Of a DNA stretch of 64,000 nucleotides, positions 976 to 59,470 are shown piece after piece. Below the pieces are notes generated by a model. That model was not told the DNA's origin. It ran no database searches and saw nothing but the letters and a program-made list of their open reading frames with translations. Both the position numbers and the translations under genes were made by a program. The DNA comes from a virus (taxonomy: Duplodnaviria; Caudoviricetes): IMG/VR virus record IMGVR_UViG_2706794911_000004, positions 44,422 through 108,421 of that record. The stretch is one strand, 5' to 3'. Every line of letters starts with the position of its first letter. Position 1 is the stretch's first letter.

Positions 976-2784
976 CTAATTATTTTTTACTTCCTTGAGT
1001 ATTGCTATTGAGGTGTTAAATGTAGTAGGTGACTTACTAAACATATTAATGTGTGTGTTCAGACTGAAAAATTTATAGACTTCTGTTGTGTTACCTATCT
1101 GCATTTCTAGTTCCTCGCCGTCGATCATATTGTGGTCATGTATTGCTACAACACCATACAAGTTGCATCTGTAACCTTCATAAAAATTGACTAAATATAT
1201 TGGACTTGAGTGTATCTCCTCCGTCCAAAGAGAAGCATTAAAACCATGTATATCTAGTACTAGTCTCTGTAGTGGGCTAGGTATAGTTCCCACCGTTGGG
1301 TAATTTGGTAAGTGTGTCAAGAAGGCAGGGTGATACTCTTGGAAGTATAGTCCTGATTTACCTTTAAACATCGATACTGAATCCATCCCATTAGAAGAAT
1401 GTCTACCAAATGCAGAGTAACTATTATTCTTTGTCTTATCTATATTATTATAAGTCATACCTGCTTTTGCTGCTGTTAACTCACCTGTCCCCGCCGTTAC
1501 CGCAAAGTTTCCTGTAGATGGTGTAGTAGCTAGGTCCTCTGTCATCCCTATATATACTAAGTTTCTATAATAGTTATCTATACCATGACTAGGGTCCCCT
1601 TGTAAAATCATTACCAGTCTACTATTATCCACACTTATATAATAGTCCACCGTAGAGAAGAAAGGGCGTTTCTTATCTGCTATCCACGATTCTGTGTAGT
1701 CAGCACTAGTAAACGCCAACGTGTTTGGACTAGTGAACCCGTCTACAATGTTAAAGACTCTAGGTACAAAATGGTTAGATTCATATACTTGCCGCTCCCA
1801 CGCTAAGTATGCTTCATACTGGTCAATCACTACTGGTGTCTTACCTGCCCCTACTGTACTTAAGTCACAAGCCTTATTATACGTATTCACCGCATACTGG
1901 TTATCCGAGCTAGGTACTATGTCACCTTCTACCGCAAAACCATACCTGATCTTGAAGTAATTAGCATTGTCTTCTGGCTGTTCTAAAAGTACGTTTACGA
2001 TCTCGCCGCCCTCATGCTGTAAAACCCCTATAGCAGGTATAGAGTTGTGGGTAGGAGTAAACCTGTTAAGGGTTACTGTATAAGTGCTTACTATCAAAAG
2101 GTTAATAGACAGGTTTGACCATTTACCATCGCTGTATTCTCTGTATCTGTGCAAAAGAAAGTTAGAACCCTTGCTCCTCAAATATAGGTAGTACGTCCAG
2201 TCGTCAGGCATAGGTGCTAATAGTTTAAACTGATTCCAGTTAACGTCCTCAACTTCATTGCCTGTGTAGTCTATTCTTGCGTGCTTTACCACATACGCCT
2301 GATACTTTTCCCAAGGGTTGCTGAACGTGCTCTCTGGGAAATTAGGCTGCATATCCACCAAGGTTACTAAAGCATCAGGTATATTATAAACTGTTCCTCC
2401 ATGTGTAAAGCTCTTCACGTTTACTTTTCTGCCTGTTCGATACGACTCGTCATACCCTGTATAAGGTGTGTCAGGAGACAGTTCCCATACGTACCCGTTA
2501 TCATCTACATGATTTGTCTGCGTACCTAATTTGTTTATCCTAGATAAGCCGCCACCTGTGTGAGTATAGTCTACAGTTGTGTTTTGTGTGTAAAGTGTAT
2601 AAGTAATCCAGTCTCTTTGAAGCTCAGTGAATATTTTTTTCCACTTGTTAGTCTCTGTCCCCCCGCCCGCAATAGGTATAGTTGAAGCAGAAACTTTCTC
2701 CACAATATCCTTTACTAGGCTGTTTACTTGTGAGGTTTCTGTAATCCAAGCACATGGTTTATTAGGTGTTAAACATTCGTTCAT
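976..2784 (-). CDS. Virion structural (tail fibre/tip-like) protein
   Basis: 602 aa, beta-rich, in the distal tail cluster; paralogous to the next gene. Confidence 0.65.
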   Translation of the reverse strand: MNECLTPNKPCAWITETSQVNSLVKDIVEKVSASTIPIAGGGTETNKWKKIFTELQRDWITYTLYTQNTTVDYTHTGGGLSRINKLGTQTNHVDDNGYVWELSPDTPYTGYDESYRTGRKVNVKSFTHGGTVYNIPDALVTLVDMQPNFPESTFSNPWEKYQAYVVKHARIDYTGNEVEDVNWNQFKLLAPMPDDWTYYLYLRSKGSNFLLHRYREYSDGKWSNLSINLLIVSTYTVTLNRFTPTHNSIPAIGVLQHEGGEIVNVLLEQPEDNANYFKIRYGFAVEGDIVPSSDNQYAVNTYNKACDLSTVGAGKTPVVIDQYEAYLAWERQVYESNHFVPRVFNIVDGFTSPNTLAFTSADYTESWIADKKRPFFSTVDYYISVDNSRLVMILQGDPSHGIDNYYRNLVYIGMTEDLATTPSTGNFAVTAGTGELTAAKAGMTYNNIDKTKNNSYSAFGRHSSNGMDSVSMFKGKSGLYFQEYHPAFLTHLPNYPTVGTIPSPLQRLVLDIHGFNASLWTEEIHSSPIYLVNFYEGYRCNLYGVVAIHDHNMIDGEELEMQIGNTTEVYKFFSLNTHINMFSKSPTTFNTSIAILKEVKNN

Positions 2785-3206
2785 TAAGCATCACCATCCG
2801 ACCTTAAAAATTTTACATTGTACCATACACTCTTCTCCCCAGTATTTACACTAGTGAAAACAAATTTCAGCACAGCATTAGGCTCCAGTGGGTATACAAT
2901 ACCGAAACTATTACCCATTGATACACTCTCAGGCAGTTCTTTAGTATATATTGTTTCACATACTTTAACATCACCTATATAGAAATCCCAATAGTCACCC
3001 TTACAGTAATCACTACAGGCAAAGGCAACAGATAGGAACTCTGTATCGAAAGGTAAAGAAAAAGTATCTTCATACGTACCCGCACCGTTTACCGCAATCA
3101 TCCTACCTTTAATGTACGGGACAGTAAGTTTTGAAAAATGTGGGTAAGGTAGCTGTCTTACTTTATCAACTACCCCGCCCGATAAATAACTAACATTAAA
3201 TGACAT
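2784..3206 (-). CDS. Small tail-associated hypothetical protein
   Basis: 140 aa, GGAGG RBS, stop/start coupled to the next gene. Confidence 0.6.
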   Translation of the reverse strand: MSFNVSYLSGGVVDKVRQLPYPHFSKLTVPYIKGRMIAVNGAGTYEDTFSLPFDTEFLSVAFACSDYCKGDYWDFYIGDVKVCETIYTKELPESVSMGNSFGIVYPLEPNAVLKFVFTSVNTGEKSVWYNVKFLRSDGDA

Positions 3207-3227
3207 ACGTAAACCTCCCCATTCTTG

Positions 3228-3623
3228 CTACCTTTTTACAACTTTGTTTCCTTCTAAATTGCCATCCTTAGCGTAGTCTAAACCTATATAATAGTCAGTA
3301 ATAACATCTGACGAAGGAGAAAGAAATGTTATTACTACATAGTTAAGCCTAAAGTGTCTGTAGTACTCATATTCTTGCTTACGCATGTTTTCGGGGTAGG
3401 TATTTACATCATCATTACCTAAACCTAATGTCACCTGCTCTACATGACCTGATTCATACGTAAGCTCTATACTAGTTACAGTGTCTTTGTCTAGAGGATG
3501 TTCCCTATACAGCTTTACATTAGGCATACCTAAACTAGAATCAGGTGTGATTTGCCTTACTTCCTTTCTTATTAAATCCAGGATTGGGTAGATAATATTC
3601 TCATTAGGTACTGCTCTGATCAT
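3228..3623 (-). CDS. Tail-region hypothetical protein
   Basis: ORF track 3228..3650; the likely start is the ATG overlapping the upstream stop (TAATG). Confidence 0.55.
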   Translation of the reverse strand: MIRAVPNENIIYPILDLIRKEVRQITPDSSLGMPNVKLYREHPLDKDTVTSIELTYESGHVEQVTLGLGNDDVNTYPENMRKQEYEYYRHFRLNYVVITFLSPSSDVITDYYIGLDYAKDGNLEGNKVVKR

Positions 3624-6292
3624 TATACGATCACGTCCTCTCCCGCCCAAAATAAGTCGAGTGTTTGTGTATACTCACCACTTTCAGCATCGTACGCATC
3701 CTGTATGCCTTTGATTGTGTAAGTGGCATATGTGGACGTGTTTCTATCTGTTACATCTATTCTATCTAGCACATCAAGTGCAGGATTTCCAGGGATACGC
3801 ACCTGTAACGTTCTAGCTACTCTCTTCATGTCTAGAAAAAGTCTCTGAGCTACCTGTCTTTTCATTTCTAATGTATCCGCCCAATCAAGCTGTACCACAG
3901 CAGTCCTTACCTCACCTTTCAATTCCATCAGCAATTCTTTATCTACAAAACTCTGAGGCTTACCATCACTACCCACGATAATTATATGACTTCTAACCCT
4001 TGAGTAGTCAGTGTTCTTTGATATACTCATTAGGTTCTCTGTACAGTCTACTGACTCTACAACAGGGTTATTGAAGCGTATAGGCTCCAGTCTAAAAGTA
4101 CCATACCTGTCGCAGTATGCCCTGTAATTTGTGTCCTTTAGCACCTCAACTATACAGTCTGAAACCCTAGCAGAAAACTGATCGAAGCTTCTACCATATG
4201 CTTCTACATAAGGATTTTTCCATCCTTGTGGAGTAGGTATTGAATCAATAGGCACTGCTTCAAACTGCCCCTCCTCGCCCGGTACCGCTTTTAGTACAGT
4301 ACCCGCCTTTTCATTAATCTGTATTATATATGATTCCTCTATTACAGCATCTGGGTACCTTAGATCATCTGCAACTACCCGCCACCCAATTAACCCTGCA
4401 TGTGCTATAAGATCATGTATAACAGCCGATTTAAGCCACGCCACCTTCTCTATGTCTAAGATCTCAAAGTCAGGTGTGTCGTCCTCTAGAAAGTTAACGT
4501 CAGGGTAATTCTTATCTTCTGTCAGTACCTTATCTACAGCCTTTTTGTACATATCCCTAGCTGTAACTGTGAGTGACACACCCTCACCCACCTCATCTGT
4601 CCTATCTATAAGACCTGTAAACACCCTCACTAAGTGGCTACCGTAGCCTAGATAAATTCTAATTGGCGTGTTATTACTTAGAACACCTATCAAATAATTA
4701 CCTGCCCAGTAAGTGAAAACACTTTTTAGATTTAATTCTGGAAAGTAAAATGGACTATGCGTAGGGCTGTATGAACCATTCTCGTTGGTGATAGTGACAG
4801 ATGCACCCGCAGTCTCTTGATCCAGTGAATTGTTAACACTTACACTGGTTACATTATCTAGTGTACGTGTGTCCATATAGACAAAGTCGCCCACCACTAT
4901 ATCCATCTTGTTAGACACTTTATTAAACATAATGTCGTCTATCTCTTCCTCCACCCAATAGCCTTGCTGTATTGTGCTACCACCACTTGTAGGGTCTAAC
5001 TGCTCTGCTGTCTTGTTTCTGCTAACACTCATAGAGCCTAGTTCTTGTACCTCAATGTATCCGATAGAAAGCTTTTTAGTGCCAAACCGCGGTGCATAAT
5101 TAGTCGGCAGTGCGTCATGCTTGCCACCAAAAACTACCTCAATACGTATAGTGACTTCGCCTCTAGGTACATAGATATCTTTTAGCTCCTGTATATTATC
5201 TAGTCCTTCAAATGTACCTAGATTAACCGAAGCATCATTTGAGTTACCAACAAACACTCTAAAACGGTCTCCCTCAGCGTACTTAAAATCTGACCTTACC
5301 ACTAAATTCATAAAACCAGCATTAAGCATGTTTAAAGTGATGTTAAAGCCAGTTGTTATTTTCTGCTGTAGCTGCTTAAAACCAAATGTATAAGTCAGCC
5401 AGTTGCCTCTTTCCCTATTAGTTATTGTCTCGTAGGTGACCAAGTCGTTAAAGTTAGTATCTATAGCGTACCTTGAAAGTGTATGCCAGTTACGTGTTGC
5501 GAAGGTTTCATACAGCCTTAACTCTCCAGGGTAACCTTCTATCTCCTCACCTACTGATGCCCCGCCTCCCACATTTTGAACACTTTTGTAAGCTTTTGCC
5601 GAACCCACTAGATAGGGTTCTGGGTTTACAGTCACATAAGTATTGTTAATGCTTTTGTGTACTTCAAAGTGTAGATGTGCACCAGCCCCTGCTGCCCTCT
5701 CTGCAGCAGAGGGAACCTTACCTTTACTCCTAACATTACCTGTGTTACCTAGTGTACCTATGATAGCACCAGCACTCACTTCTTGACCTGTTGTGACTGA
5801 AACTGTATTAAGGTGAGCATACCTAGATAACAGACCATTAGGGTGTAATATATCTATATAGTTTCCATAACCTGTAGTACTGTTAGAATATACAACCTTT
5901 TTAACTTTACCCGCCCACACAGCTACTAGTGGTGCTTTGAAAGTACCACTGGCCAATACATAGTCAACACCTGTATGTGAAGGTCTTGAAGATGTCTTAT
6001 AGCCGCTGGTTTTTGTAGCTGTCTCGTGTGTGTGCCCGTGTATGGGAAAGACTGCCGATGCACCTTGTAGCTGTGTAGTGCCATCAAAATCACCTGACCC
6101 GTCACTAGCTATCCACCTCTGCTGTACCTTCTTTATCTCTTGTATATCAAAGGTGGTGAAGTCAAGCGTTTCTACCCTACCCGGCACGTAGGACAGACGG
6201 TCTACTTCAACTACGCACCTTGGTCTTGCTTGGCTACCTGCTTTAAGTCTATTTCTTATTAATTTTTTGAACTCATCTGTTATAAGTTGCAT
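3623..6292 (-). CDS. Tail tip/baseplate hub (Tal-like) protein with M23 peptidase domain
   Basis: M23 motifs HTGVD, GYGNYIDILH, SRYAHL, GNTG, AHLHFEV; C-terminal IRIYLGY...VFTGLID...ARD hub-type fold. Confidence 0.8.
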   Translation of the reverse strand: MQLITDEFKKLIRNRLKAGSQARPRCVVEVDRLSYVPGRVETLDFTTFDIQEIKKVQQRWIASDGSGDFDGTTQLQGASAVFPIHGHTHETATKTSGYKTSSRPSHTGVDYVLASGTFKAPLVAVWAGKVKKVVYSNSTTGYGNYIDILHPNGLLSRYAHLNTVSVTTGQEVSAGAIIGTLGNTGNVRSKGKVPSAAERAAGAGAHLHFEVHKSINNTYVTVNPEPYLVGSAKAYKSVQNVGGGASVGEEIEGYPGELRLYETFATRNWHTLSRYAIDTNFNDLVTYETITNRERGNWLTYTFGFKQLQQKITTGFNITLNMLNAGFMNLVVRSDFKYAEGDRFRVFVGNSNDASVNLGTFEGLDNIQELKDIYVPRGEVTIRIEVVFGGKHDALPTNYAPRFGTKKLSIGYIEVQELGSMSVSRNKTAEQLDPTSGGSTIQQGYWVEEEIDDIMFNKVSNKMDIVVGDFVYMDTRTLDNVTSVSVNNSLDQETAGASVTITNENGSYSPTHSPFYFPELNLKSVFTYWAGNYLIGVLSNNTPIRIYLGYGSHLVRVFTGLIDRTDEVGEGVSLTVTARDMYKKAVDKVLTEDKNYPDVNFLEDDTPDFEILDIEKVAWLKSAVIHDLIAHAGLIGWRVVADDLRYPDAVIEESYIIQINEKAGTVLKAVPGEEGQFEAVPIDSIPTPQGWKNPYVEAYGRSFDQFSARVSDCIVEVLKDTNYRAYCDRYGTFRLEPIRFNNPVVESVDCTENLMSISKNTDYSRVRSHIIIVGSDGKPQSFVDKELLMELKGEVRTAVVQLDWADTLEMKRQVAQRLFLDMKRVARTLQVRIPGNPALDVLDRIDVTDRNTSTYATYTIKGIQDAYDAESGEYTQTLDLFWAGEDVIV

Positions 6293-6304
6293 ACTCCCGC
6301 CCCT

Positions 6305-7711
6305 TTACAAGAACCTATCCATGCATAATTTTCTAAACCTGTTTAAAATACTTGCACCCTCCGCCCTAGTTATGTGTGTATAAGGAAGAAACCACGTTTC
6401 TGTGTCACCTGAACCACTTATAGGGTTGTAGTCATTATCTACGTGAACCACTTTCTGCCCTTCATGGGTAGAGGTACTTGTAACAGGTGTACCTGACACC
6501 ATTTTAGATCCATCCGAGAGTACCTCATTCTCAAGATCGAGTATATGAGATGCCCACCACGATCCACTAGCAGTACCTATTACATCAATGTAACTTGAGG
6601 TGGCTGTATTGTAGTACTTGGTATCCTCCCCCACATCTACTAAGGTGTCACTCTTAGACCTTTCGTAAAAGTATCTTATCGTGTCAACACTAGATAGTGG
6701 GCTATTCAGTGTAACTGAGTAATCACTTGTTTCAGTATAGTCAGCACTGTAAGTTAATAACGTACCATTTTTCCACACCTTTAGCTCATTTTTACCTGAT
6801 GGGTACTTACCATTTGTAAGAAAAGCTACCTGACCCTCATAAGCTGTAAAGGTCTCGTCTATCACTCTAGACGGTGGTGTTACATCAGTAAATCTTTGGT
6901 ACATTATCTTCATTAGCTTATTAACAAGTATAAATGCCTCTGCTCTATTTATCTGTGCGTTAGGGAAAAACCTATTTAAAAACAGCACCTTTGCAGAAGT
7001 AGGCTTGAAGGTCTCTGTTGTCTGCGCGTAACTATCCGTAGTAGAGTAAGTTATGCTACATGTCACATTGTTCAAGTTATATGGTACATACATTACACCT
7101 TGTGGTGATATTGTATAAACATCAGTATTATACTTTATTTTAGCCTCTAACAGATTCTGTACATTCCCCGCCCAATCAGCATCCGATATATCTATTCTTC
7201 TTAAAAGCTTACCGAAAGCAGTAACCTGCTCATGTAAGTTGCGCGAAAACTTATCGTACTTATAGTTAACTGCTTTACTTAACGTATACGAAGGATAACT
7301 TGCACCAGACGTATCACCATATGGCTTTCCGAACCTATCCACACTAGGTGTCCCTAGGCTGATGAATGATCCTACTGCACCTTGCCTAGCTGGTGAATAC
7401 AGCGTGACTTTCGTCTGTCCGCCCTCCTGTTCTACACTTTTGTAAACTGTCTGAACACCATCTATATATACAAATAATGGATTATCTGAGGTAGGTACTA
7501 TACTTACATCAAGGGTAAAAACACTTTGACCCTGCGAAGTTATTTCTGTATATAAATAAGGCGAGCCTCCCTCAAAGGCATTATAAGGTATACTGGCGAT
7601 TAGAAAGCCGCCATCCTCATCCTGTATATTACTTGCTTCTGTTACATCTTTAAAAAACCAATCACCAGGTTGCACATCTAACCATGCCACACCTACCACC
7701 CCCTGTACCAT
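6305..7711 (-). CDS. Tail-associated protein with interrupted SLH repeats
   Basis: WLDVQPGDWFFKDV, FFPNAQINRAEAFILVNK and FLPYTHITRAEGASILNR are SLH signature segments. Confidence 0.7.
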   Translation of the reverse strand: MVQGVVGVAWLDVQPGDWFFKDVTEASNIQDEDGGFLIASIPYNAFEGGSPYLYTEITSQGQSVFTLDVSIVPTSDNPLFVYIDGVQTVYKSVEQEGGQTKVTLYSPARQGAVGSFISLGTPSVDRFGKPYGDTSGASYPSYTLSKAVNYKYDKFSRNLHEQVTAFGKLLRRIDISDADWAGNVQNLLEAKIKYNTDVYTISPQGVMYVPYNLNNVTCSITYSTTDSYAQTTETFKPTSAKVLFLNRFFPNAQINRAEAFILVNKLMKIMYQRFTDVTPPSRVIDETFTAYEGQVAFLTNGKYPSGKNELKVWKNGTLLTYSADYTETSDYSVTLNSPLSSVDTIRYFYERSKSDTLVDVGEDTKYYNTATSSYIDVIGTASGSWWASHILDLENEVLSDGSKMVSGTPVTSTSTHEGQKVVHVDNDYNPISGSGDTETWFLPYTHITRAEGASILNRFRKLCMDRFL

Positions 7712-7766
7712 TAGTATAGTACAAAAGTAGAATACTATATCAGCCTTCTACCTTATTTTAGAGAAA

Positions 7767-8456: not shown

Positions 8457-8497
8457 TTAACCAATCCCTCTCAAAATATTATTTTACTGCTTATGTT

Positions 8498-51972: not shown

Positions 51973-51996
51973 GCTGCCCCTCCCCCACCCTACTAT

Positions 51997-52041: not shown

Positions 52042-52073
52042 AAACCCTCCTAGATTATATTCTTATTGAGGGT

Positions 52074-52099
52074 ATTCGACATAAAACTCAAAAATCCTT
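52074..52099 (-). promoter_or_regulatory. SigH-type promoter, antisense to the operon
   Basis: AAGGATTT-N11-GTCGAAT. Confidence 0.65.
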
Positions 52100-52649: not shown

Positions 52650-52873
52650 GTTATGTAGGAATAATTAAACTAAAAAAGCAAGATGTTCCATATGAAGAAA
52701 TTGAAGGTTTTAGGTATGACACAGGTTCATATTATATGGATACTGCTAGAGACATATTTGACGACCTGTGTTCTAATTTATCCGTAGCTAGTAGCTGTCA
52801 AGTGCGATGGGAGTTTGAAGGAATAGGACAAGGACATTACTGTGATGACTGGTATTTTGGAAGGAGGAGGTAA
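52646..52873 (+). CDS. Hypothetical protein
   Basis: AAGGAGG RBS. Confidence 0.6.
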   Translation: MSYVGIIKLKKQDVPYEEIEGFRYDTGSYYMDTARDIFDDLCSNLSVASSCQVRWEFEGIGQGHYCDDWYFGRRR

Positions 52874-52875
52874 AG

Positions 52876-53088
52876 ATGGATAAGAAAGAAATTACTACCT
52901 TTACTTGCCACAGTTGTAAACACGAATTTACATGGGACAGGGGTAATGACATAAGAGGAAACATTTATCAGTGTGAGAATTGTGACAAGTATATATGTTT
53001 TAGCTGCCTGTTTGAAAATGAGCATAATGTAGGAGAGATGGCTGAAGTATTGTGCCTAGATTGTTTGAGAGGGAGAAGAATAGCATGA
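52876..53088 (+). CDS. Zinc-finger protein
   Basis: Four CxxC pairs. Confidence 0.65.
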   Translation: MDKKEITTFTCHSCKHEFTWDRGNDIRGNIYQCENCDKYICFSCLFENEHNVGEMAEVLCLDCLRGRRIA

Positions 53089-53216
53089 TAACAAAGATTG
53101 ATATTAGAGACCATATACTATCATTTAATGTAGATGGCATATGGGTAGAAGTCAATTGTTGTGATACCGAGCAAGCCGAGAGATTAGTAATAAAACTGTT
53201 GAAGGAAGGTGTTTAA
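53085..53216 (+). CDS. Small hypothetical protein (43 aa)
   Basis: Coupled ORF. Confidence 0.4.
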   Translation: MITKIDIRDHILSFNVDGIWVEVNCCDTEQAERLVIKLLKEGV

Positions 53217-53514
53217 ATTGAAATTACTTACAGAAGAAATTAGAAAACTTATCCTGCCCCTCTACTCCACTGAGGAAGTTGAGGAAAAGGTTGCAGTCGT
53301 TAAGTTCTTTGACCCCTACAGTTCGTGGACGTGGTATGTCATTGAGGGCGAAGAACAGGAAAATGGCGATTATCTATTCTTTGGATTGGTACATGGTTTT
53401 GAAAGAGAATATGGCTACTTTGCGTTAAATGAATTAGAAAGCATTGATTTCATGGGAGCACCACGAATCGAAAGAGACTTATACTTCTCCCCTACCCCAG
53501 TTTCAAAATTATAA
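53209..53514 (+). CDS. DUF2958-like protein
   Basis: VKFFDP...WTWYVIE...FFGLV..FE.EYGYFALNEL...IERDLYF. Confidence 0.8.
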   Translation: MFKLKLLTEEIRKLILPLYSTEEVEEKVAVVKFFDPYSSWTWYVIEGEEQENGDYLFFGLVHGFEREYGYFALNELESIDFMGAPRIERDLYFSPTPVSKL

Positions 53515-53528
53515 GGAGGTGTTAAACA

Positions 53529-53801
53529 GTGATTGCAATGTCAAAAGCAGAAGCTGTGGAAAAAGGACTGCCTACTTATAACGAAGGAGCACATAAATTA
53601 ATTGATGTAAGTGATAATAGCACGTTAATTTTATTAATGCCTAACGGTGTATATGTAACAGTAGCTTCCATAGGTAATGTTGGTGCTGACTGGGCATGTC
53701 TGGATATAAAAGTACAGAGTTCTACCACACAGCGAATAGTAGCTGAGAAAATGATAGATCTTCTTGACGGAACTTATTCGCTAGATATAAACGTTATATA
53801 G
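53529..53801 (+). CDS. Hypothetical protein
   Basis: AAGGAGGT RBS. Confidence 0.55.
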   Translation: MIAMSKAEAVEKGLPTYNEGAHKLIDVSDNSTLILLMPNGVYVTVASIGNVGADWACLDIKVQSSTTQRIVAEKMIDLLDGTYSLDINVI

Positions 53802-53837
53802 TTCACCTACCCCCACCCATAAAATTTGGGTGGGGTC

Positions 53838-53866
53838 TTAACTTTTTGCAATTGTTCAGGTAAGTA
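53838..53866 (+). promoter_or_regulatory. Phage promoter motif TTAAC-N16-GGTAAGTA
   Basis: After a hairpin terminator; heads the mazF operon. Confidence 0.7.
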
Positions 53867-53889
53867 ATAATAAGGGAGGTACTAGAAAG

Positions 53890-53994
53890 ATGTTTGACAA
53901 ACTGTCAGACAAATACAGCGAGATAGTATTCCGCATAACTACCCAAGGACGATTTAATACATACTGGGCGGCTTGGGCTAGGGACGAATATTAA
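53890..53994 (+). CDS. 34-aa peptide upstream of MazF
   Basis: GGGAGG RBS; MFDKLSDKYSEIVFRITTQGRFNTYWAAWARDEY. Confidence 0.5.
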   Translation: MFDKLSDKYSEIVFRITTQGRFNTYWAAWARDEY

Positions 53995-54006
53995 AGGAGG
54001 GGGCAT

Positions 54007-54354
54007 ATGCGAAGGGGCGATATTTATTATGCAGATTTAAGTCCAGCAGTAGGGTCTGAGCAAGGAGGTACAAGACCTGTTCTAGTAGTGCAAAATAACG
54101 TAGGGAACAAGCATAGCCTAACGGTCATCATTACAGCCATTACATCCGTGATTGACAAAGCAAAGTTACCAACACACGTAGAGGTTAATGCTCTAGAATA
54201 TGGTTTAACAAAGGATTCTGTCATATTACTGGAACAAGTTAGAACACTAGATAAAAAGAGGCTAAAGGAAAAAATTGGCCATATAGATGGTGAGACGATG
54301 TTGAAAGTAAATGAGGCTTTGTCTATAAGCCTCGGATTGGGGGAAAGAGTATGA
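54007..54354 (+). CDS. mazF: PemK/MazF (EndoA/NdoA-like) endoribonuclease
   Basis: [28 protein letters not shown]...AITS...KLPTHV...[14 protein letters not shown]. Confidence 0.93.
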
Positions 54355-55661
54355 AAATTTCTGATCTAGAGGGTAAAAAAATGGCTGTACATTGCAAAAC
54401 AAAAGAACTATCTGATAAATTTTTAAACAAGCTTGAGTTATCTGGCTTTGACACCTTACTAAGTGACAGGTGGAATATATACGGTAAAAACACATGCTAC
54501 AGTATCTACAAAGGCAAAGTATACTATGGTCGCTACAGTTACTACGAAAGTGAGGATTACGAGATACACGAATTTGAAGGGTGGGAGGAAGAGTTGAGAA
54601 TAAAAACAATTGAGCAACTACAAAAGCTAGGGAAAAAGGATGTTATTAGGTGTAAAACACTAGACTTGGCTACAGAGTTTTTAGCCAAGCTGCACAGCAA
54701 AGGGTATAGATGGGCTTCACATGATTCGTTAGTTGGTGAGAGCAACTGGGATAAGTACGGTAGCCAAACATGCTACTTCGTGGAAGGTAAGCAATTGTGT
54801 TATTCTGACGACCTTTATTTTGAACGTAATGGTTTCAAGATATATGAATTTGAAGGGTGGGAGGATGAGCTGAATATTAAAAAAGGTATGATAATACACT
54901 GTGAGACAGAGCAACAAGCTATACGACTACTAGAAGATTTAGATAGAAGAGGTTATAAATGGTTGTCTGGTAGTAGCTTAACATTGCATGCTAGCTGGGG
55001 AATACACAAGGAAGAGACTTGTTATAGCATCGGTAGCGGTATGGTGCAGTATGCAAGTTTAGGCTTTTACAAAAGGAGTGGTAGTGAGGTGACTAAGTTT
55101 AGTGATTTGCTTATACCCCATTGTATTGAAGAAAGGAAACTATACAGCTCAGTTCTTAGTAACTTCAATGGACATCGTGTAGTAGAGTTCTATGAGGACA
55201 GCGAAGGTCAGCCTAACATTGTCTTTTCCAGTGGTTGTGTTTATGAAGGTTACAAGAGGCTTAAAGATTTTGAGGCTAACGTTGAAATCAAATATGGGAG
55301 TAATAAAAATTCACTTGTTTATAGGACATATATGTTAGAGGCTGATAAAATGAGACTTGCTCTCAATCTCCCCGCCCTAGGAACTTATGTAGCTATTTTT
55401 AGAGAGCTATTGGGCAAGTTCATACCTTCTGAGTTAGCAGAGAGTGGTTTAGCTGAAACTGCTCGCAACCATGTATGCTTGTGGGTGCGTGTAGCCTTGG
55501 ATCATAGCAGCTCCTTCAGCTATGATTCAGATAATGTAATCATGTCTTACGAAGTAGCTGACCAAAATCTTAGTTTTAATATAGGGGTAGATCAACTATG
55601 TGTGGCACTAGGAGTAACTAAAGAAGAAATATATAATTCGATTAAGTACACGAGTAGCTAA
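54351..55661 (+). CDS. Protein with three tandem ~80-aa repeats plus C-terminal domains
   Basis: Three units hC.T......FL..L...G..W...W..Y...TCY...Y...EFEGWE. Confidence 0.75.
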
Positions 55662-55685
55662 AATATATCTGTCGAAGTTTATTTA

Positions 55686-55713
55686 TTGACAACCCCTCCC
55701 CTCTTGCTATATT
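55686..55713 (+). promoter_or_regulatory. SigA-type promoter
   Basis: TTGACA-N16-TATATT with extended TG. Confidence 0.55.
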
Positions 55714-55995
55714 ATGTGGTTAAACCGATATACAGAGGGGAGGTGGTTATTCTTGGAGACTTTGAAAAAGCATTTAAGAGACAAATTTATGGCGGGGGAA
55801 AGCGAGGGATACGAAATAGTAATTGCTCTGCTTACACTTGTTAAAGCAGAGAAGATTGGAGAAGAAGATATTCTAGACATTCTAATGTTCGTACATTTCG
55901 ATAACTTAAAAGGTGTATTATCTTCCCTTGTAAAAGCTTCAGAACTAGTGGATGATGATATGATAGATGATATAATTAAATCGGCAGGTAGGTGA
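55714..55995 (+). CDS. Hypothetical protein
   Basis: ORF; the true start is probably the TTG after GGAGG. Confidence 0.55.
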   Translation: MWLNRYTEGRWLFLETLKKHLRDKFMAGESEGYEIVIALLTLVKAEKIGEEDILDILMFVHFDNLKGVLSSLVKASELVDDDMIDDIIKSAGR

Positions 55996-56000
55996 GCAGC

Positions 56001-56210
56001 ATGTTGTTATTTCTTTTTGTTGTATTTATATGTCTGATGATGATACTAAACTCATTTTCTATAGTCTTAAACAACTTACTAAGTGTCTCTTTGTAAAAAA
56101 GAGACCTTAATCTATTTTTGACAAGTTTTGTGGACTTAATTCAGCTTATTTTTGCTGTAGCAATTCTATTTGGTGCCTTATACTTGTTAATGAAGTTATC
56201 CGACTGCTAA
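56001..56210 (+). pseudogene. Two-TM membrane protein gene with an in-frame TAA
   Basis: MLLFLFVVF...SVSL*KRDLNLFL...LSDC; TAA at 56094. Confidence 0.45.
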
Positions 56211-56218
56211 ATTTTTCC

Positions 56219-56247
56219 TTAATTTTTAGTGGCTAGTCGGGTATGTA
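56219..56247 (+). promoter_or_regulatory. Phage promoter motif variant TTAAT-N16-GGTATGTA
   Basis: Upstream of the helicase operon. Confidence 0.6.
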
Positions 56248-56271
56248 TTAATAAGAAAGGAAGTGATGTAA

Positions 56272-56787
56272 TTGCGGACAAGGCTAGAACCTTATATACA
56301 AAATAACGTATTATCGTTAAGGAAACTTAAAGAGGTCTCCCCCGCTCTCTACAAGTACATGCTTACTTGTGGTGACGAGTATAATGGTATAGAGATACTA
56401 GATGACTCAAAAGTAATAAAGGGCGGTGATATCAAAAAGTACCTAACCCACTACTATGGTGAGGTTGTAGATGTGTCACGCCTCAGGAGGGGTGCCCTCT
56501 ATATTTACAACAAGATTGTCAGTATGGGTAACGTCCAGAAGGTTATAGAGGGGTGGGGGTTTACAGTTATTTATGAAGGAAAGGCAACTGAGTACTCTCT
56601 AAAAAAAGATCTGCAGAAGTATGTTATCAGGGGCAACATTCTGGGAAGGCTACCTAAGGATATACAGAATAAAGTGTGGTATTTAGCCAATAAAAATAAA
56701 ATGTCTGTGGGTGAATACTTGAATAAACTAGGCTACATTAAAGGAACTAGAAAGCTATGGCGGAGGTATGCGGATGATAAAAGCTAA
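56272..56787 (+). CDS. Basic hypothetical protein
   Basis: ORF with RBS. Confidence 0.6.
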   Translation: MRTRLEPYIQNNVLSLRKLKEVSPALYKYMLTCGDEYNGIEILDDSKVIKGGDIKKYLTHYYGEVVDVSRLRRGALYIYNKIVSMGNVQKVIEGWGFTVIYEGKATEYSLKKDLQKYVIRGNILGRLPKDIQNKVWYLANKNKMSVGEYLNKLGYIKGTRKLWRRYADDKS

Positions 56788-58621
56788 AAAAATCGATACT
56801 AAAATAGGTGCTAGGGTTAAGCTAGAGTTTAGAAAGAACGAATTGATCGAGAGGGTACTTGCTACAATGAAAGGGGCTTTCTATGACAGGGTTACAAAAT
56901 CTTGGACTCTCCCCTACTCTGCCCGCCCCGATATAGAGAAAAAACTAGGTAACTTCCTACTCATATGGGAAGATGAAGATACCCCCTTCAATGGTGGTAT
57001 TGATATGTCCACTATCCCTATACAGCCAGTTGTACCAGGGTACAGTGTAGAGTATAACAAAGCAGGGGAAGTGGTGGGAGCGACTGGGTTCAAGGTTCCA
57101 CCGTATGGTGCTTTTCAAGTACAGGGTTTTAACATTATGGTAGAGAGAGACTTTGCTATTATTGGAGATCATATGGGTTTGGGGAAGACGTTTCAGTCAA
57201 TAACCGCAATAGAGGCTAGGAAGAAACTTGGTCAATTGCAAAGGTGCCTTGTGCTTACTAAGGCTACCCTGCTCTATAACTGGCGGGACGAGGTAGAAAA
57301 ATTCACAGATTGTAAAGCAGTAGTCTTAACAGGACCACCTAAGCAGAGACATAAAATGTTAATAGAGTTAGAAAAAGACACAAGCTGGACGTTCCTGATC
57401 ATGTCCTATGAGACGTATAGGATAGCTAACATTAGCGTAACAAGCATAGATGACGCTTTACCTATAGACGCACTACTCCTTGACGAAGCTCATAAAATAC
57501 GCAACCCCATGTCACGGATAGGACAGTGTGTTAACCATATCTACTTCAAGTATGTCTATCTACTCACCGCCACCCCTATTCTAAACACGCCACTGGAATC
57601 ATTTAACTATCTAAAACTAGGTAAGAAATTACCTGTAAGTGGTAGTAGTATTGTGCAGGAATGGTGGAATTTCAAGGACAGATATGCTGTCTACGGGGGG
57701 AGTAATGGCATGGAGCTTGTAGGGTATGATAACATAGGTGAGCTTAGACAGGTCATACAAGACAACATGATCAGAAGGCTGAAAAAAGACGTGCTTAAAG
57801 ACCTACCTGACGTAATGTTCAAAGATGTTAGGATAGAGCTTACTGCTGCGCAGAAGAAGATATACGATGCTGTACGAAAGGAAATTCTAGCAGACTTAGC
57901 GGAAACAGACTTAGAGAAAGTACCTTCCATGCTAGCTAAGATCACAAGACTACAGCAAGTAACGTCAGCTCTAGACAATGTTGGAATAGCGACCACAGCT
58001 TCTAACAATGCTAAGTTAAGTGCCCTTATGGATATTGTAGAAGATGCTGTTGAGGCGGGCGAGAAAGTGATCATATTCTCTAAGTTCCGCCCCACTATCG
58101 AACTGCTTACAGAAAAGTTTAAAAAGCTAAACCCTGCTGTAATTACAGGTGGTACTGACAGTCACGCACTTCCAGCAGACTTGGCAGTAGCAAAAGCAAA
58201 GAAGAAATACAAAGATTGGAATATGTGGGCGGAGGAAGATAGACAAAAAGTAATAAAAGATTTAACAACAAGTGATAGACAACTAGAAGTGTATAAGTTC
58301 CAAGGCGACGATACTTGTAAGGTGTTTATAGGTAGTATATTTGCTTGTGCAGAGGGTCTAACCCTTACTGCCGCCACCCACGTCATAAACTTTGACTATC
58401 CGTTCAATTGGGCAATATATGAACAGTCCTTTTCCAGATGCCATAGACTGGGACAAAAGAATGCTGTGACTGTCCATAATATCATGTGTTCAGGTACAGT
58501 AGATGAGAAGATTTTCCAGATTATTATGCTCAAGAAAGGCATCAGTGAATCGTTGCTCGACAGTAAGGTGGATAGCATAGAGCAACAAAAAGCTTTTGAT
58601 TTTGTAAAATCTGTAATTTAA
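56768..58621 (+). CDS. SNF2-family (HARP-like) helicase
   Basis: DHMGLGKT, DEAH, TATP, EKVIIFS, EGLTLTAA, SRCHRLGQ. Confidence 0.92.
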   Translation: MRMIKAKKIDTKIGARVKLEFRKNELIERVLATMKGAFYDRVTKSWTLPYSARPDIEKKLGNFLLIWEDEDTPFNGGIDMSTIPIQPVVPGYSVEYNKAGEVVGATGFKVPPYGAFQVQGFNIMVERDFAIIGDHMGLGKTFQSITAIEARKKLGQLQRCLVLTKATLLYNWRDEVEKFTDCKAVVLTGPPKQRHKMLIELEKDTSWTFLIMSYETYRIANISVTSIDDALPIDALLLDEAHKIRNPMSRIGQCVNHIYFKYVYLLTATPILNTPLESFNYLKLGKKLPVSGSSIVQEWWNFKDRYAVYGGSNGMELVGYDNIGELRQVIQDNMIRRLKKDVLKDLPDVMFKDVRIELTAAQKKIYDAVRKEILADLAETDLEKVPSMLAKITRLQQVTSALDNVGIATTASNNAKLSALMDIVEDAVEAGEKVIIFSKFRPTIELLTEKFKKLNPAVITGGTDSHALPADLAVAKAKKKYKDWNMWAEEDRQKVIKDLTTSDRQLEVYKFQGDDTCKVFIGSIFACAEGLTLTAATHVINFDYPFNWAIYEQSFSRCHRLGQKNAVTVHNIMCSGTVDEKIFQIIMLKKGISESLLDSKVDSIEQQKAFDFVKSVI

Positions 58622-58633
58622 TAAAATAGCACC

Positions 58634-58662
58634 TCAACTTTTCAGGGTCTTACCGGTAAGTA
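58634..58662 (+). promoter_or_regulatory. Phage promoter motif variant TCAAC-N16-GGTAAGTA
   Basis: Heads the operon leading into rtcB. Confidence 0.65.
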
Positions 58663-58682
58663 TTAATAGGAGGTGGTTTACC

Positions 58683-59084
58683 GTGAAAGACCCTTTTTTA
58701 ATAAAAGAAAACACGGAATTAGTAAAAGAGTATTTTAGGAGAAATCAGATTAAAAAAGAGCAGGAAGCTTGGTTAAAAAAGAGCAAGACAAAGGTGTTAG
58801 AGCTTATGGGAGACAGAGCTAAGGCTGATTTTGATGAGGTCAGGGTGTCTGTTGCTACTGTAGACAAGTCTAACTTTGATCTGGACTTAGTCTATGACTA
58901 CATCAAGGAACTCTCCCCCGCCCTGCTCCCAAAATGCACTAAGAAAGTAATTGACGAAGAACTTTTAGTTGGACTAATTGAAGCTGAGGAGATAGACTTA
59001 GACGAACTTAAAAAGGCCGCATGGGTGGCAAAAACACCAGAAACTAGGTTGACTCTAAAAGAGTTAGATGTAGACAATGATTAA
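58683..59084 (+). CDS. Hypothetical protein (helical; possible host-nuclease-inhibitor-like)
   Basis: GGAGG RBS; function is a guess. Confidence 0.55.
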   Translation: MKDPFLIKENTELVKEYFRRNQIKKEQEAWLKKSKTKVLELMGDRAKADFDEVRVSVATVDKSNFDLDLVYDYIKELSPALLPKCTKKVIDEELLVGLIEAEEIDLDELKKAAWVAKTPETRLTLKELDVDND

Positions 59085-59259
59085 GGTGGGAGATTTAGTT
59101 ATCATCTCCCCCGCCCACTCTGTCAAATTTGGTGGGTGGTGTGGACGAGTAGTGGCTATAGAACCTGAAGATGGTTTACCCGTTAAGGTAAAGTTTAATG
59201 AGCAAGTGTACGGATTTGACTTTGATGAATTGGGGGATGATGTATATGGCAAAAATTAA
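59077..59259 (+). CDS. Small KOW/SH3-like protein
   Basis: IKVGDLV...GRVV...VKF. Confidence 0.6.
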   Translation: MIKVGDLVIISPAHSVKFGGWCGRVVAIEPEDGLPVKVKFNEQVYGFDFDELGDDVYGKN

Positions 59260-59470
59260 AGAGGTTAGCGTTGAGGTGGCTTACCTTAAGTCGTTACCAA
59301 ATTATGAAAACGTAAGATTAACTGCTGGTGCTGTCGTAAATGTAGAGGAAGGTGACAAAACACAAGATGTGTATGGTAGAGCATGGGACATGGCGGGGCG
59401 AGAGATTGAAAATCAGTTAGAGTTGTTCAAGACAGAAGATAAGGGTAAAGCAAAAAAGGGACTTAAGTAG
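59246..59470 (+). CDS. Hypothetical protein
   Basis: MAKIKEVSV...LPNYENVR. Confidence 0.6.
   Translation: MAKIKEVSVEVAYLKSLPNYENVRLTAGAVVNVEEGDKTQDVYGRAWDMAGREIENQLELFKTEDKGKAKKGLK

What the first reader, a model, noticed from the sequence alone, without database searches (positions are those of the whole stretch)
2660..59400. Strongly over-represented, partly polarised hexamer CCCGCC/GGCGGG: a Chi-like signal?
By eye I count roughly 45 CCCGCC on + and about 20 GGCGGG on +, whereas base composition predicts only a few per strand. In genes the motif is built from otherwise rare synonymous codons (TGG GCG GGN at 3642, 5910, 7167), which suggests selection on the DNA. Polarity: only CCCGCC over 1-26 kb, mostly GGCGGG over 26.5-36.5 kb, CCCGCC over 37.3-44.6 kb, then mixed. 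The flips lie near the putative origin (27.1 kb) and the 37.3-kb junction. That is the orientation expected of a Chi-type site (B. subtilis Chi is AGCGG) protecting forks and genome ends from AddAB. I saw none in the AT-rich 59.5-64 kb block. A phage protein-binding site is the alternative.
Basis: partly seen in the sequence, partly recalled or inferred. Interest (0 to 1): 0.75.

Follow-up and report, generated by a model that had tools for sequence, protein, structure and literature searches.

The report
Phage-private CCCGCC/GGCGGG word, not Chi
A 104-kb prophage carries the six-letter DNA word CCCGCC/GGCGGG about once per kilobase, far more than its genes require, its host does not, and related phages share the habit, so the phage itself seems to select the word for a purpose still unknown.

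Summary

The word belongs to a ~104-kb Jenst-like prophage (contig C28, ~23.8-127.8 kb; window 1-~59,470). It has 114 sites in 102 kb, against 0.087/kb in the rest of the genome.

The excess survives shuffling synonymous codons within genes. Coding-strand GGCGGG is 81 against 13.9±3.5, and CCCGCC is 19 against 3.2±1.7. It is the top hexamer of 4,096. It also survives a shuffle that forbids restriction-type words.

Both orientations are enriched about six-fold, so the polarity is only coding-strand composition. Host genes show no excess (84 vs 65.5; 19 vs 20.4). The host has AddA and shows a Chi-like skew for AGCGG, which the phage does not enrich. A host Chi reading is therefore not supported.

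Related phages share the excess: the word ranks in the top 5 in 13 of 26 related locus clusters and in none of 37 distant ones. Site positions are not conserved.

Best reading: a selected, orientation-free word, private to this phage lineage. Its reader is unknown and is probably a phage protein that acts on DNA.

The parts
1..59470 (.). Right-hand ~59.5 kb of an integrated ~104-kb Jenst-like prophage (contig C28, ~23.8-127.8 kb)
   Evidence: Portal, major head, tape-measure and large terminase hits. Nearest phages are Brevibacillus Jenst/SecTim467 and Bacillus EZ-2018a, portal 41-43% identity. In relative G065 the orthologue of the last right-end gene lies beside the orthologue of the serine integrase found at the left end, so the two ends join.
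1490..59397 (.). Field of 67 CCCGCC/GGCGGG sites (47 + 20 on the + strand), part of 114 sites in the 102-kb stretch counted
   Evidence: Spacing is no different from random placement (CV 0.87 against 0.99±0.09).
1490..26297 (+). 26 CCCGCC on +, no GGCGGG. In the gene calls the genes here lie on the - strand apart from one doubtful + ORF (15664-16563), so the coding strand carries GGCGGG
   Evidence: For window 1-25.2 kb, coding GGCGGG is 23 vs 3.9 and coding CCCGCC 0 vs 0.1 expected.
26522..36516 (.). Mixed block: 11 GGCGGG and 5 CCCGCC on +. Includes three coding-strand CCCGCC sites in the terminase gene
   Evidence: For the - strand genes here, coding GGCGGG is 5 vs 0.9 and coding CCCGCC 6 vs 0.7.
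37300..44613 (+). 10 CCCGCC on +, no GGCGGG, in a region of small + strand genes. Four sites are intergenic and three of those belong to an 11-mer family
   Evidence: Coding CCCGCC 5 vs 0.5, coding GGCGGG 0 vs 0.6; the numbers are small.
45014..59397 (.). Mixed block: 6 CCCGCC and 9 GGCGGG on + among + strand genes
   Evidence: Coding GGCGGG 9 vs 1.5, coding CCCGCC 5 vs 1.1.
39357..39367 (+). Copy of the 11-mer CCCGCCCCACC just downstream of one small ORF and ~25 nt upstream of the next start codon
39590..39609 (+). Exact 20-mer CCCGCCCCACCAGATAAAAA, copy 1
   Evidence: 2 matches, 0.01 expected.
39729..39748 (+). Exact 20-mer CCCGCCCCACCAGATAAAAA, copy 2
41133..41143 (+). Copy of the 11-mer CCCGCCCCACC
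28102..28112 (-). Copy of the 11-mer CCCGCCCCACC on the - strand, intergenic
8536..8565 (-). Intergenic site 8545 inside a GC-rich inverted repeat followed by a T-run on the - strand (terminator-like)
   Evidence: Read from the sequence printed. Inference; not scored by a tool.
23731..25200 (-). Portal gene, used to find relatives
   Evidence: phrog_3753, E 3.9e-95; relatives.
28233..29951 (-). Large terminase gene, carrying three coding-strand CCCGCC sites
26123..27508 (-).
   Evidence: phrog_6493, E 3.8e-40.
56768..58621 (+). SNF2-family helicase gene, conserved in most relatives
59471..64000 (.). AT-rich DNA outside the prophage (host chromosome or another island), with no site. Starts with an RtcB-like gene

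Best explanation
CCCGCC/GGCGGG has a core CCGCC/GGCGG, usually inside a G-rich run of the form GGK-GGCGG-GGG. It is a DNA word private to this lineage of ~100-125-kb Jenst-like phages. Selection on the DNA itself keeps it at roughly one copy per kb, in either orientation, wherever the protein sequence allows.

Shown:
- The excess is real.
- It is confined to the prophage and absent from the host.
- It is independent of reading frame, orientation and gene class.
- Codon usage, protein sequence and avoidance of restriction-type words do not explain it.
- Many related phages from other sources share it.
- Individual site positions turn over.

Inferred:
- What is selected is the number of sites, not their places.
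The word would then give phage DNA frequent start or control points on either strand, for example primer-start or loading sites.
- It is not the host's Chi.

Most intergenic copies probably have a more ordinary origin. GC-rich hairpin stems and a short repeated 11-mer are built from this word because GGCC, CCGG, GCGC and CGCG are avoided.
For: 1. Confinement to the prophage. There are 92 + 22 sites in C28:25.8-127.8 kb against 572 in the whole 5.39-Mb genome. tblastn found no second related prophage in the genome.

2. DNA-level excess.
- Within-gene synonymous shuffles: 81 vs 13.9±3.5 and 19 vs 3.2±1.7, 300 shuffles.
- Top word of 4,096 hexamers.
- All three frames: 37/11/33 observed vs 6.8/2.0/4.8 expected, and 7/7/5 vs 1.9/0.3/0.9.
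- Core genes 47 vs 7.5; genes unique to this phage 8 vs 2.7 and 10 vs 1.6; intergenic 15 vs 0.65.
- GGC-GGG 37 vs 6.1 and GCG-GGG 27 vs 3.8.

3. Not a by-product of restriction avoidance.
- Shuffles that also forbid 26 depleted words give 17-21 and 4-8 (4 runs).
- Positive control: in relative G064 the TCCGGA excess (63 observed, 14.1 under plain shuffle) is largely reproduced by the same constrained shuffle (38-44).

4. Orientation-free. The enrichment factor is about 6 for both orientations and similar in each arm. In five relatives both orientations are also enriched.

5. Lineage trait.
- Codon-shuffle excess in G061, G062, G063, G065, G068 and G069. Under the avoidance-constrained shuffle, run on G061 and G065 only, the excess persists in G061 and is weaker in G065.
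- The word ranks in the top 5 of 2,080 in 13 of 26 de-duplicated locus clusters with portal identity of 43% or more, and in the top 20 in 0 of 37 distant clusters.

6. Turnover. The same hexamer sits at the homologous position in only 3 of 51, 1 of 37, 5 of 33 and 2 of 59 aligned sites.

7. The host lacks the excess: 84 vs 65.5 and 19 vs 20.4 in 1.09 Mb of coding sequence.

8. Link to the replication module. Six of six enriched complete relatives carry the primase, helicase and polymerase genes. G066 and G067 lack the primase and polymerase (G067 also the helicase) and show no excess.
Against: - No reader protein is identified.
- The link to the replication module is weak and confounded by ancestry. 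G070c22 has these genes and no excess (CCGCC 17 vs 16.4). G064 has them with CCGC almost eliminated (1 vs ~101-104). The word is therefore dispensable for that machinery, or the machinery's specificity differs there.
- About eight other small genes show the same or a better presence pattern.
- Across the 12 genomes the excess tends to go with avoidance of GGCC/CCGG/GCGC/CGCG. This hints at a link to restriction pressure that my nulls may not fully capture.
- Site density varies ten-fold among relatives, 0.11-1.2 per kb.
- DnaG-type primases are known to read trinucleotides (recalled). I know of no genome-wide enrichment of primase sites.
Confidence: 0.45

Rival explanations
1. Host Chi-type signal. 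The word attenuates the host's AddAB and protects phage ends and forks, with orientation tied to replication.
For: - The host has AddA above the curated cut-off (1267 bits).
- The word is G-rich and shares GCGG with the B. subtilis (AGCGG) and S. aureus (GAAGCGG) Chi sequences, as listed in passages of bioRxiv 10.1101/2021.07.08.451572.
- Phages rich in host Chi exist (abstract starts in the listing: PMC12315714, PMC3784561).
- Host GGCGG is slightly raised on the sense strand (1.28x, against 0.86x antisense).
Against: - There is no excess in host genes. The host-wide density is 0.087/kb.
- Both orientations are enriched equally against the codon null, so no polarity remains beyond the coding strand.
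- AGCGG shows the Chi-like skew in the host (1.21x sense, 0.59x antisense) but is not enriched in the phage (0.95x and 0.82x).
- The same core recurs in relatives recovered from other genomes and metagenomes; a few homologues or loci carry Paenibacillus and Moorella names. The Chi sequences listed for three Gram-positive species (B. subtilis, S. aureus, L. lactis) are not all alike.
Confidence: 0.07
2. Compositional by-product. The phage needs some GC-rich codons, avoids GGCC, CCGG, GCGC, CGCG and many other restriction-type words, and the remaining permitted GC-rich words pile up.
For: - Every C/G-only hexamer containing one of the four palindromic tetramers is depleted (0-0.84x). All 13 classes without them are raised (1.67-9.5x).
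- G064 shows that a four-fold excess (TCCGGA) can arise this way.
- Across 12 genomes the excess tends to go with avoidance of those tetramers.
- Intergenic copies sit in hairpin stems, in the prophage, in the host (paired sites about 15 nt apart) and in L109 (7 inverted pairs).
Against: - Constrained shuffles raise the expectation only from about 14 to 17-21 and from about 3 to 4-8, against 81 and 19 observed. Both orientations together are 100 vs 22.
- The CpG in GGC-GGG and GCG-GGG is optional. An AT-rich, CpG-poor genome (2186 CpG vs 3963 expected) would not create it by default.
- GGGGGG, which is equally permitted, is not enriched (24 vs 25.7).
- G070c22 avoids the tetramers moderately and shows no excess.
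Confidence: 0.12
3. Mutational or repair drive. A sequence-specific correction (as in very-short-patch repair next to a cytosine methylase) or a polymerase bias keeps creating the word.
For: - Sites are randomly placed, turn over quickly, occur on both strands, and often fall where the amino acids differ between orthologues (only 13 of 51 sites have identical residues).
- The phage has its own polymerase.
Against: - No single-substitution neighbour with an ordinary expectation is depleted. The transition neighbours are at 0.74-1.85x. The only strongly depleted neighbours carry an avoided palindromic tetramer.
- The only methyltransferase found in the prophage matches adenine-specific families, so it cannot act on a word without A. 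It was also not found in any of the five relatives searched.
- No Vsr-like gene was seen among the proteins scanned, but about half of the genes were never scanned.
Confidence: 0.1
4. The word acts at the interface with the host. It is read by a host protein or defence system common to many Bacillota, for example as a shield, a decoy or a stop signal for a translocating nuclease other than AddAB acting in Chi mode. Alternatively it breaks up binding of silencing proteins that prefer AT-rich DNA.
For: - The excess tends to go with strong restriction-site avoidance, that is with exposure to host defences.
- The word is dispensable in G064 when a CCGC-type restriction pressure removes it.
- Density varies widely among close relatives, as expected for a host-dependent benefit.
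Against: - Host DNA does not carry the word in excess, so it is not a host self-mark.
- No candidate host reader is known.
- The same core is shared across relatives recovered from other genomes and metagenomes, which fits a phage-encoded reader more simply.
Confidence: 0.15
5. The word is the target of a phage DNA modification on C or G, and more targets give more protection or regulation.
For: - The word is non-palindromic and 5-6 bp long, like the targets of type IIS or type III-style methylases (recalled).
- A nucleotide-metabolism operon (HU-like protein, dNMP kinase, dUTPase-like protein) is present in the enriched relatives and absent from the three non-enriched ones.
Against: - No cytosine methylase or guanine-exchange enzyme was found among the proteins scanned.
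- The phage still avoids C/G-only restriction sites, so its C and G are probably not broadly protected.
- A target site does not need to be over-represented.
Confidence: 0.08

Closest known systems
Chi sites of AddAB/RecBCD (B. subtilis AGCGG, S. aureus GAAGCGG, L. lactis GCGCGTG, E. coli GCTGGTGG)
   Same: Short, G-rich and scattered at high density. The number of sites is selected rather than their positions. Some phages accumulate host Chi. The sequences come from passages of bioRxiv 10.1101/2021.07.08.451572.
   Different: Chi is frequent and strand-skewed in the host chromosome. This word is not enriched in the host. It has no orientation bias beyond coding composition. It differs from AGCGG, which the phage does not enrich.
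DNA uptake sequences (Neisseria DUS, Haemophilus USS)
   Same: About one copy per kb, in both orientations, inside genes in all frames, with positional turnover. They act as a self signal read by a dedicated protein (recalled).
   Different: Those mark a bacterial chromosome for transformation and are 9-12 bp long. Here the marked genome is a phage, the core is 5-7 bp, and no uptake process is involved.
Polar chromosome words (KOPS for FtsK, SRS for SpoIIIE)
   Same: G-rich short words kept by selection on DNA (the listing includes PMC3384302 on KOPS; abstract start only).
   Different: Those are strongly strand-skewed towards dif and belong to the host. This word is orientation-free and private to the phage.
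Primase recognition sites of phage replisomes (T7 GTC with preferred pentamers, T4 GTT/GCT; recalled)
   Same: Short words needed often on both strands. This phage encodes a DnaG-like primase and a DnaB-like helicase.
   Different: I know of no genome-wide enrichment of such sites. G064 and G070c22 keep the primase without the word.
Stoperators of cluster A mycobacteriophages (recalled)
   Same: Tens of copies of an asymmetric site spread over a temperate phage genome.
   Different: Those are 13-bp repressor sites, mostly between genes and oriented with transcription. This word is a hexamer, mostly inside genes (100 of 115 sites in C28:20-132 kb) and in both orientations.
Promoter-like motif of Jenst and SecTim467 (PMC4909266, passages read)
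   Same: Same phage family; a repeated DNA motif not found in the host.
   Different: That motif occurs 19-20 times, lies between genes, and is placed upstream of replication and nucleotide-metabolism genes. It is a different feature.

Membership tests
Chi (AddAB/RecBCD hotspot) | Over-represented in the host's own genes or chromosome | tested here: not met
   Host coding sequence, 1.09 Mb: GGCGGG 84 vs 65.5 (rank 794), CCCGCC 19 vs 20.4.
Chi (AddAB/RecBCD hotspot) | Strand skew beyond what coding composition gives | tested here: not met
   Both orientations are enriched about six-fold: 81 vs 13.9 and 19 vs 3.2. The result is similar by arm.
Chi (AddAB/RecBCD hotspot) | Host possesses the cognate helicase-nuclease | tested here: met
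   AddA (TIGR02785), 1267 bits, above the cut-off.
Chi (AddAB/RecBCD hotspot) | Attenuates the nuclease or stimulates recombination in an orientation-dependent way | not testable with these tools
   Needs an AddAB assay or a rolling-circle plasmid assay.
By-product of restriction-site avoidance | The excess is reproduced when synonymous codons are shuffled under a ban on the depleted words | tested here: not met
   OWN (the 102-kb prophage stretch): 17-21 and 4-8 against 81 and 19. The control G064 TCCGGA is reproduced, 38-44 of 63.
Very-short-patch-type repair drive | Depletion of the deamination (transition) neighbour of the word | tested here: not met
   Transition neighbours are at 0.74-1.85x of the codon null.
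Very-short-patch-type repair drive | A cytosine methylase (with a mismatch endonuclease) in the element | tested here: not met
   The only methylase found matches adenine-specific families and was not found in any of the five relatives searched. Not all genes were scanned.
Primase recognition site | Co-occurrence of the word with the phage primase across relatives | tested here: inconclusive
   Primase is present in all 6 enriched relatives and absent from G066 and G067. It is also present in G064 and G070c22, which lack the excess.
Primase recognition site | Primers start at the word | not testable with these tools
   Needs a primase assay or mapping of RNA-DNA junctions.
Polar chromosome words (KOPS/SRS) | A strong skew that switches at a defined point | tested here: not met
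   The apparent switches follow gene orientation, and the codon null explains them.
DNA uptake sequence-like self signal | Genome-wide excess in both orientations and all frames, with positional turnover | tested here: met
   This shows resemblance in pattern only.
DNA uptake sequence-like self signal | A dedicated receptor protein that reads the word | not testable with these tools
   No candidate identified.

The most novel reading that the evidence does not exclude
A clade of large temperate Bacillota phages keeps a private self word, GGCGG(G), at about one copy per kb. A phage-encoded protein reads it in either orientation to mark or serve phage DNA, for example as start or loading points for the phage's own replisome or recombination machinery, or as protection from a phage nuclease. 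This would be a viral counterpart of Chi or uptake sequences whose reader travels with the virus.
Probability: 0.3. Interest if true: 0.85.

Novelty: new variant of a known kind. Interest (0 to 1): 0.6.

Why it matters
Short words kept at high density by selection on DNA (Chi, uptake sequences, KOPS) are known for bacterial chromosomes, and each led to a protein that reads it. Here the same kind of statistical signature belongs to a phage lineage and not to its host, and it recurs in relatives recovered from other genomes and metagenomes.

If a phage protein reads the word, it would show how a large phage tells its own DNA apart or organises its replication. It would also give a simple sequence marker for this clade in metagenomes.

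The work also yields a usable control. An avoidance-constrained codon shuffle separates a true excess (this word) from a by-product (TCCGGA in the relative G064).

Five literature searches returned no report of this enrichment among the papers they listed. They cover only the held library, and only listings and a few passages were read.

Tried and rejected
- Maximal-order Markov z-scores are uninformative for the hexamer, because its own sub-words carry the excess.
- Methyltransferase as cause: adenine-type and not found in any of the five relatives searched.
- tRNA-driven codon bias: no tRNA in the window. The only one lies just outside the left end.
- Regular spacing: none.
- Positional conservation: none to speak of.
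- Presence/absence of genes against enrichment in 11 relatives: several small unknown genes and a dUTPase-like gene fit. The sample is small and the phages are related, so I draw no conclusion.
- PHROG, Pfam and NCBIfam scans of those genes gave no DNA-reading domain except an HU-like protein.
- Closely related pairs for polarising substitutions: only one moderately enriched group at 94-99.9% identity, with too few sites.
- A single-sequence portal search in genome and viral collections found nothing. An alignment was needed.
- No portal match in 60 genomes related to the host.
- Sequencing runs: only one DNA holder, kept as contigs and possibly the source sample. No RNA holder is listed. Read ends at the word could therefore not be examined, and read laying was not used.
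- The search of earlier findings was not open.
- No structure prediction, complex prediction or RNA-family search was made.
- Paper supplements were not consulted.

Full report
**1. Check of the observation**

The window is G000:C28:68305-132304. With C and G each at 19.2% of the window, composition predicts about 3 per strand. The codon reading TGG GCG GGN is right at 5910 and 7167. At 3642 the frame is TTG GGC GGG.

**2. Where the word lives**

Along contig C28 the word is dense only between about 25 and 128 kb. The 102-kb stretch C28:25.8-127.8 kb, called OWN below, has 92 CCCGCC and 22 GGCGGG, or 1.12 per kb. The whole 5.39-Mb genome has 572, so the rest stands at 0.087 per kb.

This stretch is a prophage.
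- It has portal, major head, tape-measure and large terminase genes.
- A large serine integrase sits at its left end. It also encodes its own sigma factors, UvsX-like recombinase, Cas4-like nuclease, family-A polymerase, single-strand-binding protein, DnaG-like primase and DnaB-like helicase.
- It carries an HU-like protein and a XerC/D-like recombinase, and an SNF2 helicase.
- The nearest named phages are Brevibacillus phages Jenst and SecTim467 and Bacillus phage EZ-2018a, with portal identity of 41-43%.
- In relative G065 the orthologue of the last right-hand gene (window 59198-59470) lies next to the integrase orthologue. The prophage therefore ends at about window 59,470.

The field of sites and the prophage coincide. 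tblastn found no second related prophage in the genome.

**3. Is it more than composition and coding?**

I called genes with a simple greedy longest-ORF script: 130 genes, 93.3 kb.

Synonymous codons were shuffled among positions of the same amino acid within each gene.
- GGCGGG on the coding strand: 13.9±3.5 expected (maximum 26 in 300 shuffles), 81 observed.
- CCCGCC on the coding strand: 3.2±1.7 expected (maximum 9), 19 observed.
- Among all 4,096 hexamers, GGCGGG ranks first and its reverse complement fourth.
- The excess is present in all three frames and in both orientations. It holds in core genes (47 vs 7.5; 7 vs 1.0), in genes unique to this phage (8 vs 2.7; 10 vs 1.6) and in intergenic DNA (15 vs 0.65).
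- It is made from minor codon choices. GGC-GGG encodes 37 of 185 Gly-Gly pairs (6.1 expected) and GCG-GGG 27 of 144 Ala-Gly pairs (3.8 expected). The element as a whole is poor in CpG (2186 vs 3963 expected).

The core is CCGCC with C-rich flanks on both sides.

**4. Polarity**

With one enrichment factor of about 6 for both orientations, the codon null (13.9 and 3.2) predicts the observed 81:19 split.

By region:

| Region | Coding GGCGGG (obs vs exp) | Coding CCCGCC (obs vs exp) |
|---|---|---|
| - strand structural and replication block (C28:25.8 kb to window 25.2 kb) | 44 + 23 vs 6.9 + 3.9 | 2 + 0 vs 0.6 + 0.1 |
| Window 26.1-37.4 kb | 5 vs 0.9 | 6 vs 0.7 |
| Window 37.7-44.9 kb | 0 vs 0.6 | 5 vs 0.5 |
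| Window 44.9-59.5 kb | 9 vs 1.5 | 5 vs 1.1 |

The long run of CCCGCC on the + strand over 1-26 kb therefore arises because nearly all genes there lie on the - strand and their coding strand is G-rich.

The CCCGCC-only stretch at 37.3-44.6 kb rests on small numbers. Three of its four intergenic sites are copies of an 11-mer, CCCGCCCCACC, lying between small genes. Two copies (one intergenic, one inside a called ORF) belong to an exact 20-mer.

**5. Is it a by-product of restriction avoidance?**

The prophage strongly avoids GGCC, CCGG, GCGC, CGCG and several 6-bp palindromes, for example CAGCTG (0 vs ~25) and GAATTC (1 vs ~22). Every C/G-only hexamer containing one of the four tetramers is depleted. 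Every one without them is raised, with CCCGCC highest at 9.5x.

I therefore ran a shuffle that swaps synonymous codons only when no depleted word is created.
- With 26 forbidden words it gives 17-21 GGCGGG and 4-8 CCCGCC in 4 runs.

The method can detect a by-product. In relative G064 the top word TCCGGA (63 observed; 14.1 under plain shuffle) reaches 38-44 under the constrained shuffle. Its synonymous alternatives TCAGGA and TCTGGA are nearly absent (1 vs 37; 4 vs 33).

Avoidance thus explains a small part of the excess here, not the bulk.

A caution remains. Across 12 genomes the excess tends to go with avoidance of the four tetramers.

**6. Is it a mutational drive?**

No single-substitution neighbour with an ordinary expectation is depleted. 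The transition neighbours stand at 0.74-1.85x of the codon null. The only strongly depleted neighbours carry an avoided palindromic tetramer.

The only methyltransferase found in the prophage matches adenine-specific families. It was not found in any of the five relatives searched, and it cannot act on a word without A.

**7. The host**

- A host flanking protein has its nearest Atlas clusters mostly in Bacillota. This is a lead only.
- The genome encodes AddA above the curated cut-off.
- In 1.09 Mb of host coding sequence, GGCGGG is 84 vs 65.5 and CCCGCC 19 vs 20.4.
- The B. subtilis-type Chi word AGCGG shows a sense excess and antisense deficit in the host (1.21x and 0.59x). It is not enriched in the phage (0.95x and 0.82x).
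- GGCGG in the phage is 2.59x and 3.42x.
- The Chi sequences cited here were read in passages of bioRxiv 10.1101/2021.07.08.451572.

A host Chi reading is not supported.

**8. Relatives**

Portal homologues at 52-78% identity are numerous. A few carry names from Paenibacillus, Moorella, Peribacillus, Solibacillus and Aneurinibacillus, often on contigs of 100-125 kb.

I fetched loci around portal homologues and ranked hexamers with an order-2 Markov model on both strands.
- After merging loci at 95% identity or more, CCCGCC ranks in the top 5 of 2,080 words in 13 of 26 clusters with portal identity of 43% or more, and in the top 3 in 9.
- Examples: L109, 21 vs 0.5 at 30.5% GC; L115, 21 vs 1.0.
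- It ranks in the top 20 in 0 of 37 clusters with portal identity of 27-37%.

For 11 complete or long relatives I repeated the codon shuffle.
- Enriched in both orientations: G061, G062, G063, G065, G068 and G069.
- Weakly enriched: Jenst.
- Not enriched: G066, G067 and the phage part of G070c22.
- G064 has no site in its genes, because CCGC is almost eliminated there (1 vs ~101-104).

Site positions are not conserved between orthologous genes. The same hexamer at the homologous place was seen in 3 of 51, 1 of 37, 5 of 33 and 2 of 59 aligned sites. Spacing is indistinguishable from random.

In L109, 7 inverted pairs about 30 nt apart are GC hairpins. Similar paired sites occur in the host.

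**9. What it most likely is**

Three points are shown: a positive force acts on DNA, the trait is private to the phage lineage, and it is orientation-free with turnover. This pattern fits selection on the number of sites.

The same core recurs in relatives recovered from other genomes and metagenomes and is absent from this host's own genes.

The replication-recombination module is the obvious place to look. It is present in all six enriched relatives. G066 and G067 lack its polymerase, primase, recombinase and nuclease genes.

The link is weak, however.
- G070c22 and G064 have the module without the excess.
- About eight small unknown genes, an HU-like gene and a dUTPase-like gene fit as well or better.
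- The phages are not independent samples.

G064 shows that the word is dispensable when restriction pressure removes it.

I put 0.45 on a selected, phage-read word that serves phage DNA transactions. Smaller weights go to a host-interface role, a compositional by-product, a mutational drive, a modification target and host Chi.

**10. Literature**

The motif reported for Jenst and SecTim467 is an intergenic, promoter-like element with 19-20 copies (PMC4909266, passages read), not this word.

Searches returned no report of a CCCGCC/GGCGGG excess in phages among the papers they listed. Only listings and the passages named above were read, and supplements were not available.

**11. Limits**

- Gene calls are crude.
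- Nulls keep per-gene codon usage. That usage already contains the word, so the nulls are conservative. They do not model every weakly avoided word.
- Locus ranks in relatives rest on about 8-21 kb each.
- No experiment bears on function.

Noticed in passing
L001:13675-13751 (C28:23675-23751, - strand): A tRNA-Pro (anticodon GGG) lies just outside the serine integrase gene at the left end of the prophage. It may mark the attachment site. No direct repeat longer than 15 bases was found between the two ends.
   Followed up: partly
Relative G064 (record behind L031/L111; loci L154-L159): This complete related phage has almost no CCGC/GCGG (1 vs ~101-104 expected). It also avoids many other words (CTCTTC 0 vs 59, TCAGG 7 vs 112). 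This is a heavy restriction-avoidance profile. Its top word TCCGGA is largely a by-product of that avoidance.
   Followed up: yes
Host contigs C50, C87, C95, C53: In host genes AGCGG is raised on the sense strand (541 vs 446) and depleted on the antisense strand (200 vs 341). GAAGCGG behaves the same way (68 vs 50; 7 vs 14). This is the pattern expected of a Bacillus/Staphylococcus-type Chi. The most over-represented host words are CCTTTG/CCTATG types, unexplained.
   Followed up: partly
Window 39357-39367, 39590-39609, 39729-39748, 41133-41143, 28102-28112(-): An 11-mer CCCGCCCCACC in five copies. Two copies are part of an exact 20-mer. They lie between or at the ends of small early-region genes, about 20-30 nt upstream of start codons. 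This could be a regulatory element.
   Followed up: partly
Window 15642-16563: Two long overlapping ORFs on opposite strands (299 aa on +, 267 aa on -) lie inside the - strand structural block. My gene caller took the + one. The + ORF still matches 5 of 6 enriched relatives by tblastn, so which one is real is open.
   Followed up: no
Window 59720-60943: An RtcB-like RNA ligase gene lies in the AT-rich block just outside the prophage. It is only 24% identical to the RtcB-like genes of Jenst and G062. It may belong to another island.
   Followed up: partly
L002:4787-5563 (C28:34787-35563, - strand): An adenine-type DNA methyltransferase found in this prophage but in none of the five relatives searched with it as query, nor by tblastn in any of the 11 relatives.
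   Followed up: yes
L001:17415-19231 (C28:27415-29231, - strand): An operon of HU-like protein, dNMP (thymidylate) kinase-like protein, dUTPase-like protein and a 125-aa unknown. It is present in the enriched relatives and absent from the three non-enriched ones. It recalls the nucleotide-metabolism sets of phages with modified bases (recalled).
   Followed up: partly
G070:C22 (loci L192-L196): The last ~10 kb of this 93-kb contig has 70.7% GC, against ~31% for the phage part. The contig of this metagenome-assembled genome looks chimeric.
   Followed up: no
Whole assembly G000: The assembly as laid has C 996,550 vs G 883,576 and T > A. In three of the four large contigs examined about 85% of called genes lie on the - strand (e.g. 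C87: 235 vs 40); in C50 the split is 227 vs 136. The contigs seem to be laid in a consistent orientation.
   Followed up: no
L109 (metagenome contig, 30.5% GC): 21 CCCGCC sites in 21 kb against 0.5 expected. Seven pairs of inverted CCGCC/GGCGG sites lie about 30 nt apart, that is GC-rich hairpins in a very AT-rich phage.
   Followed up: partly
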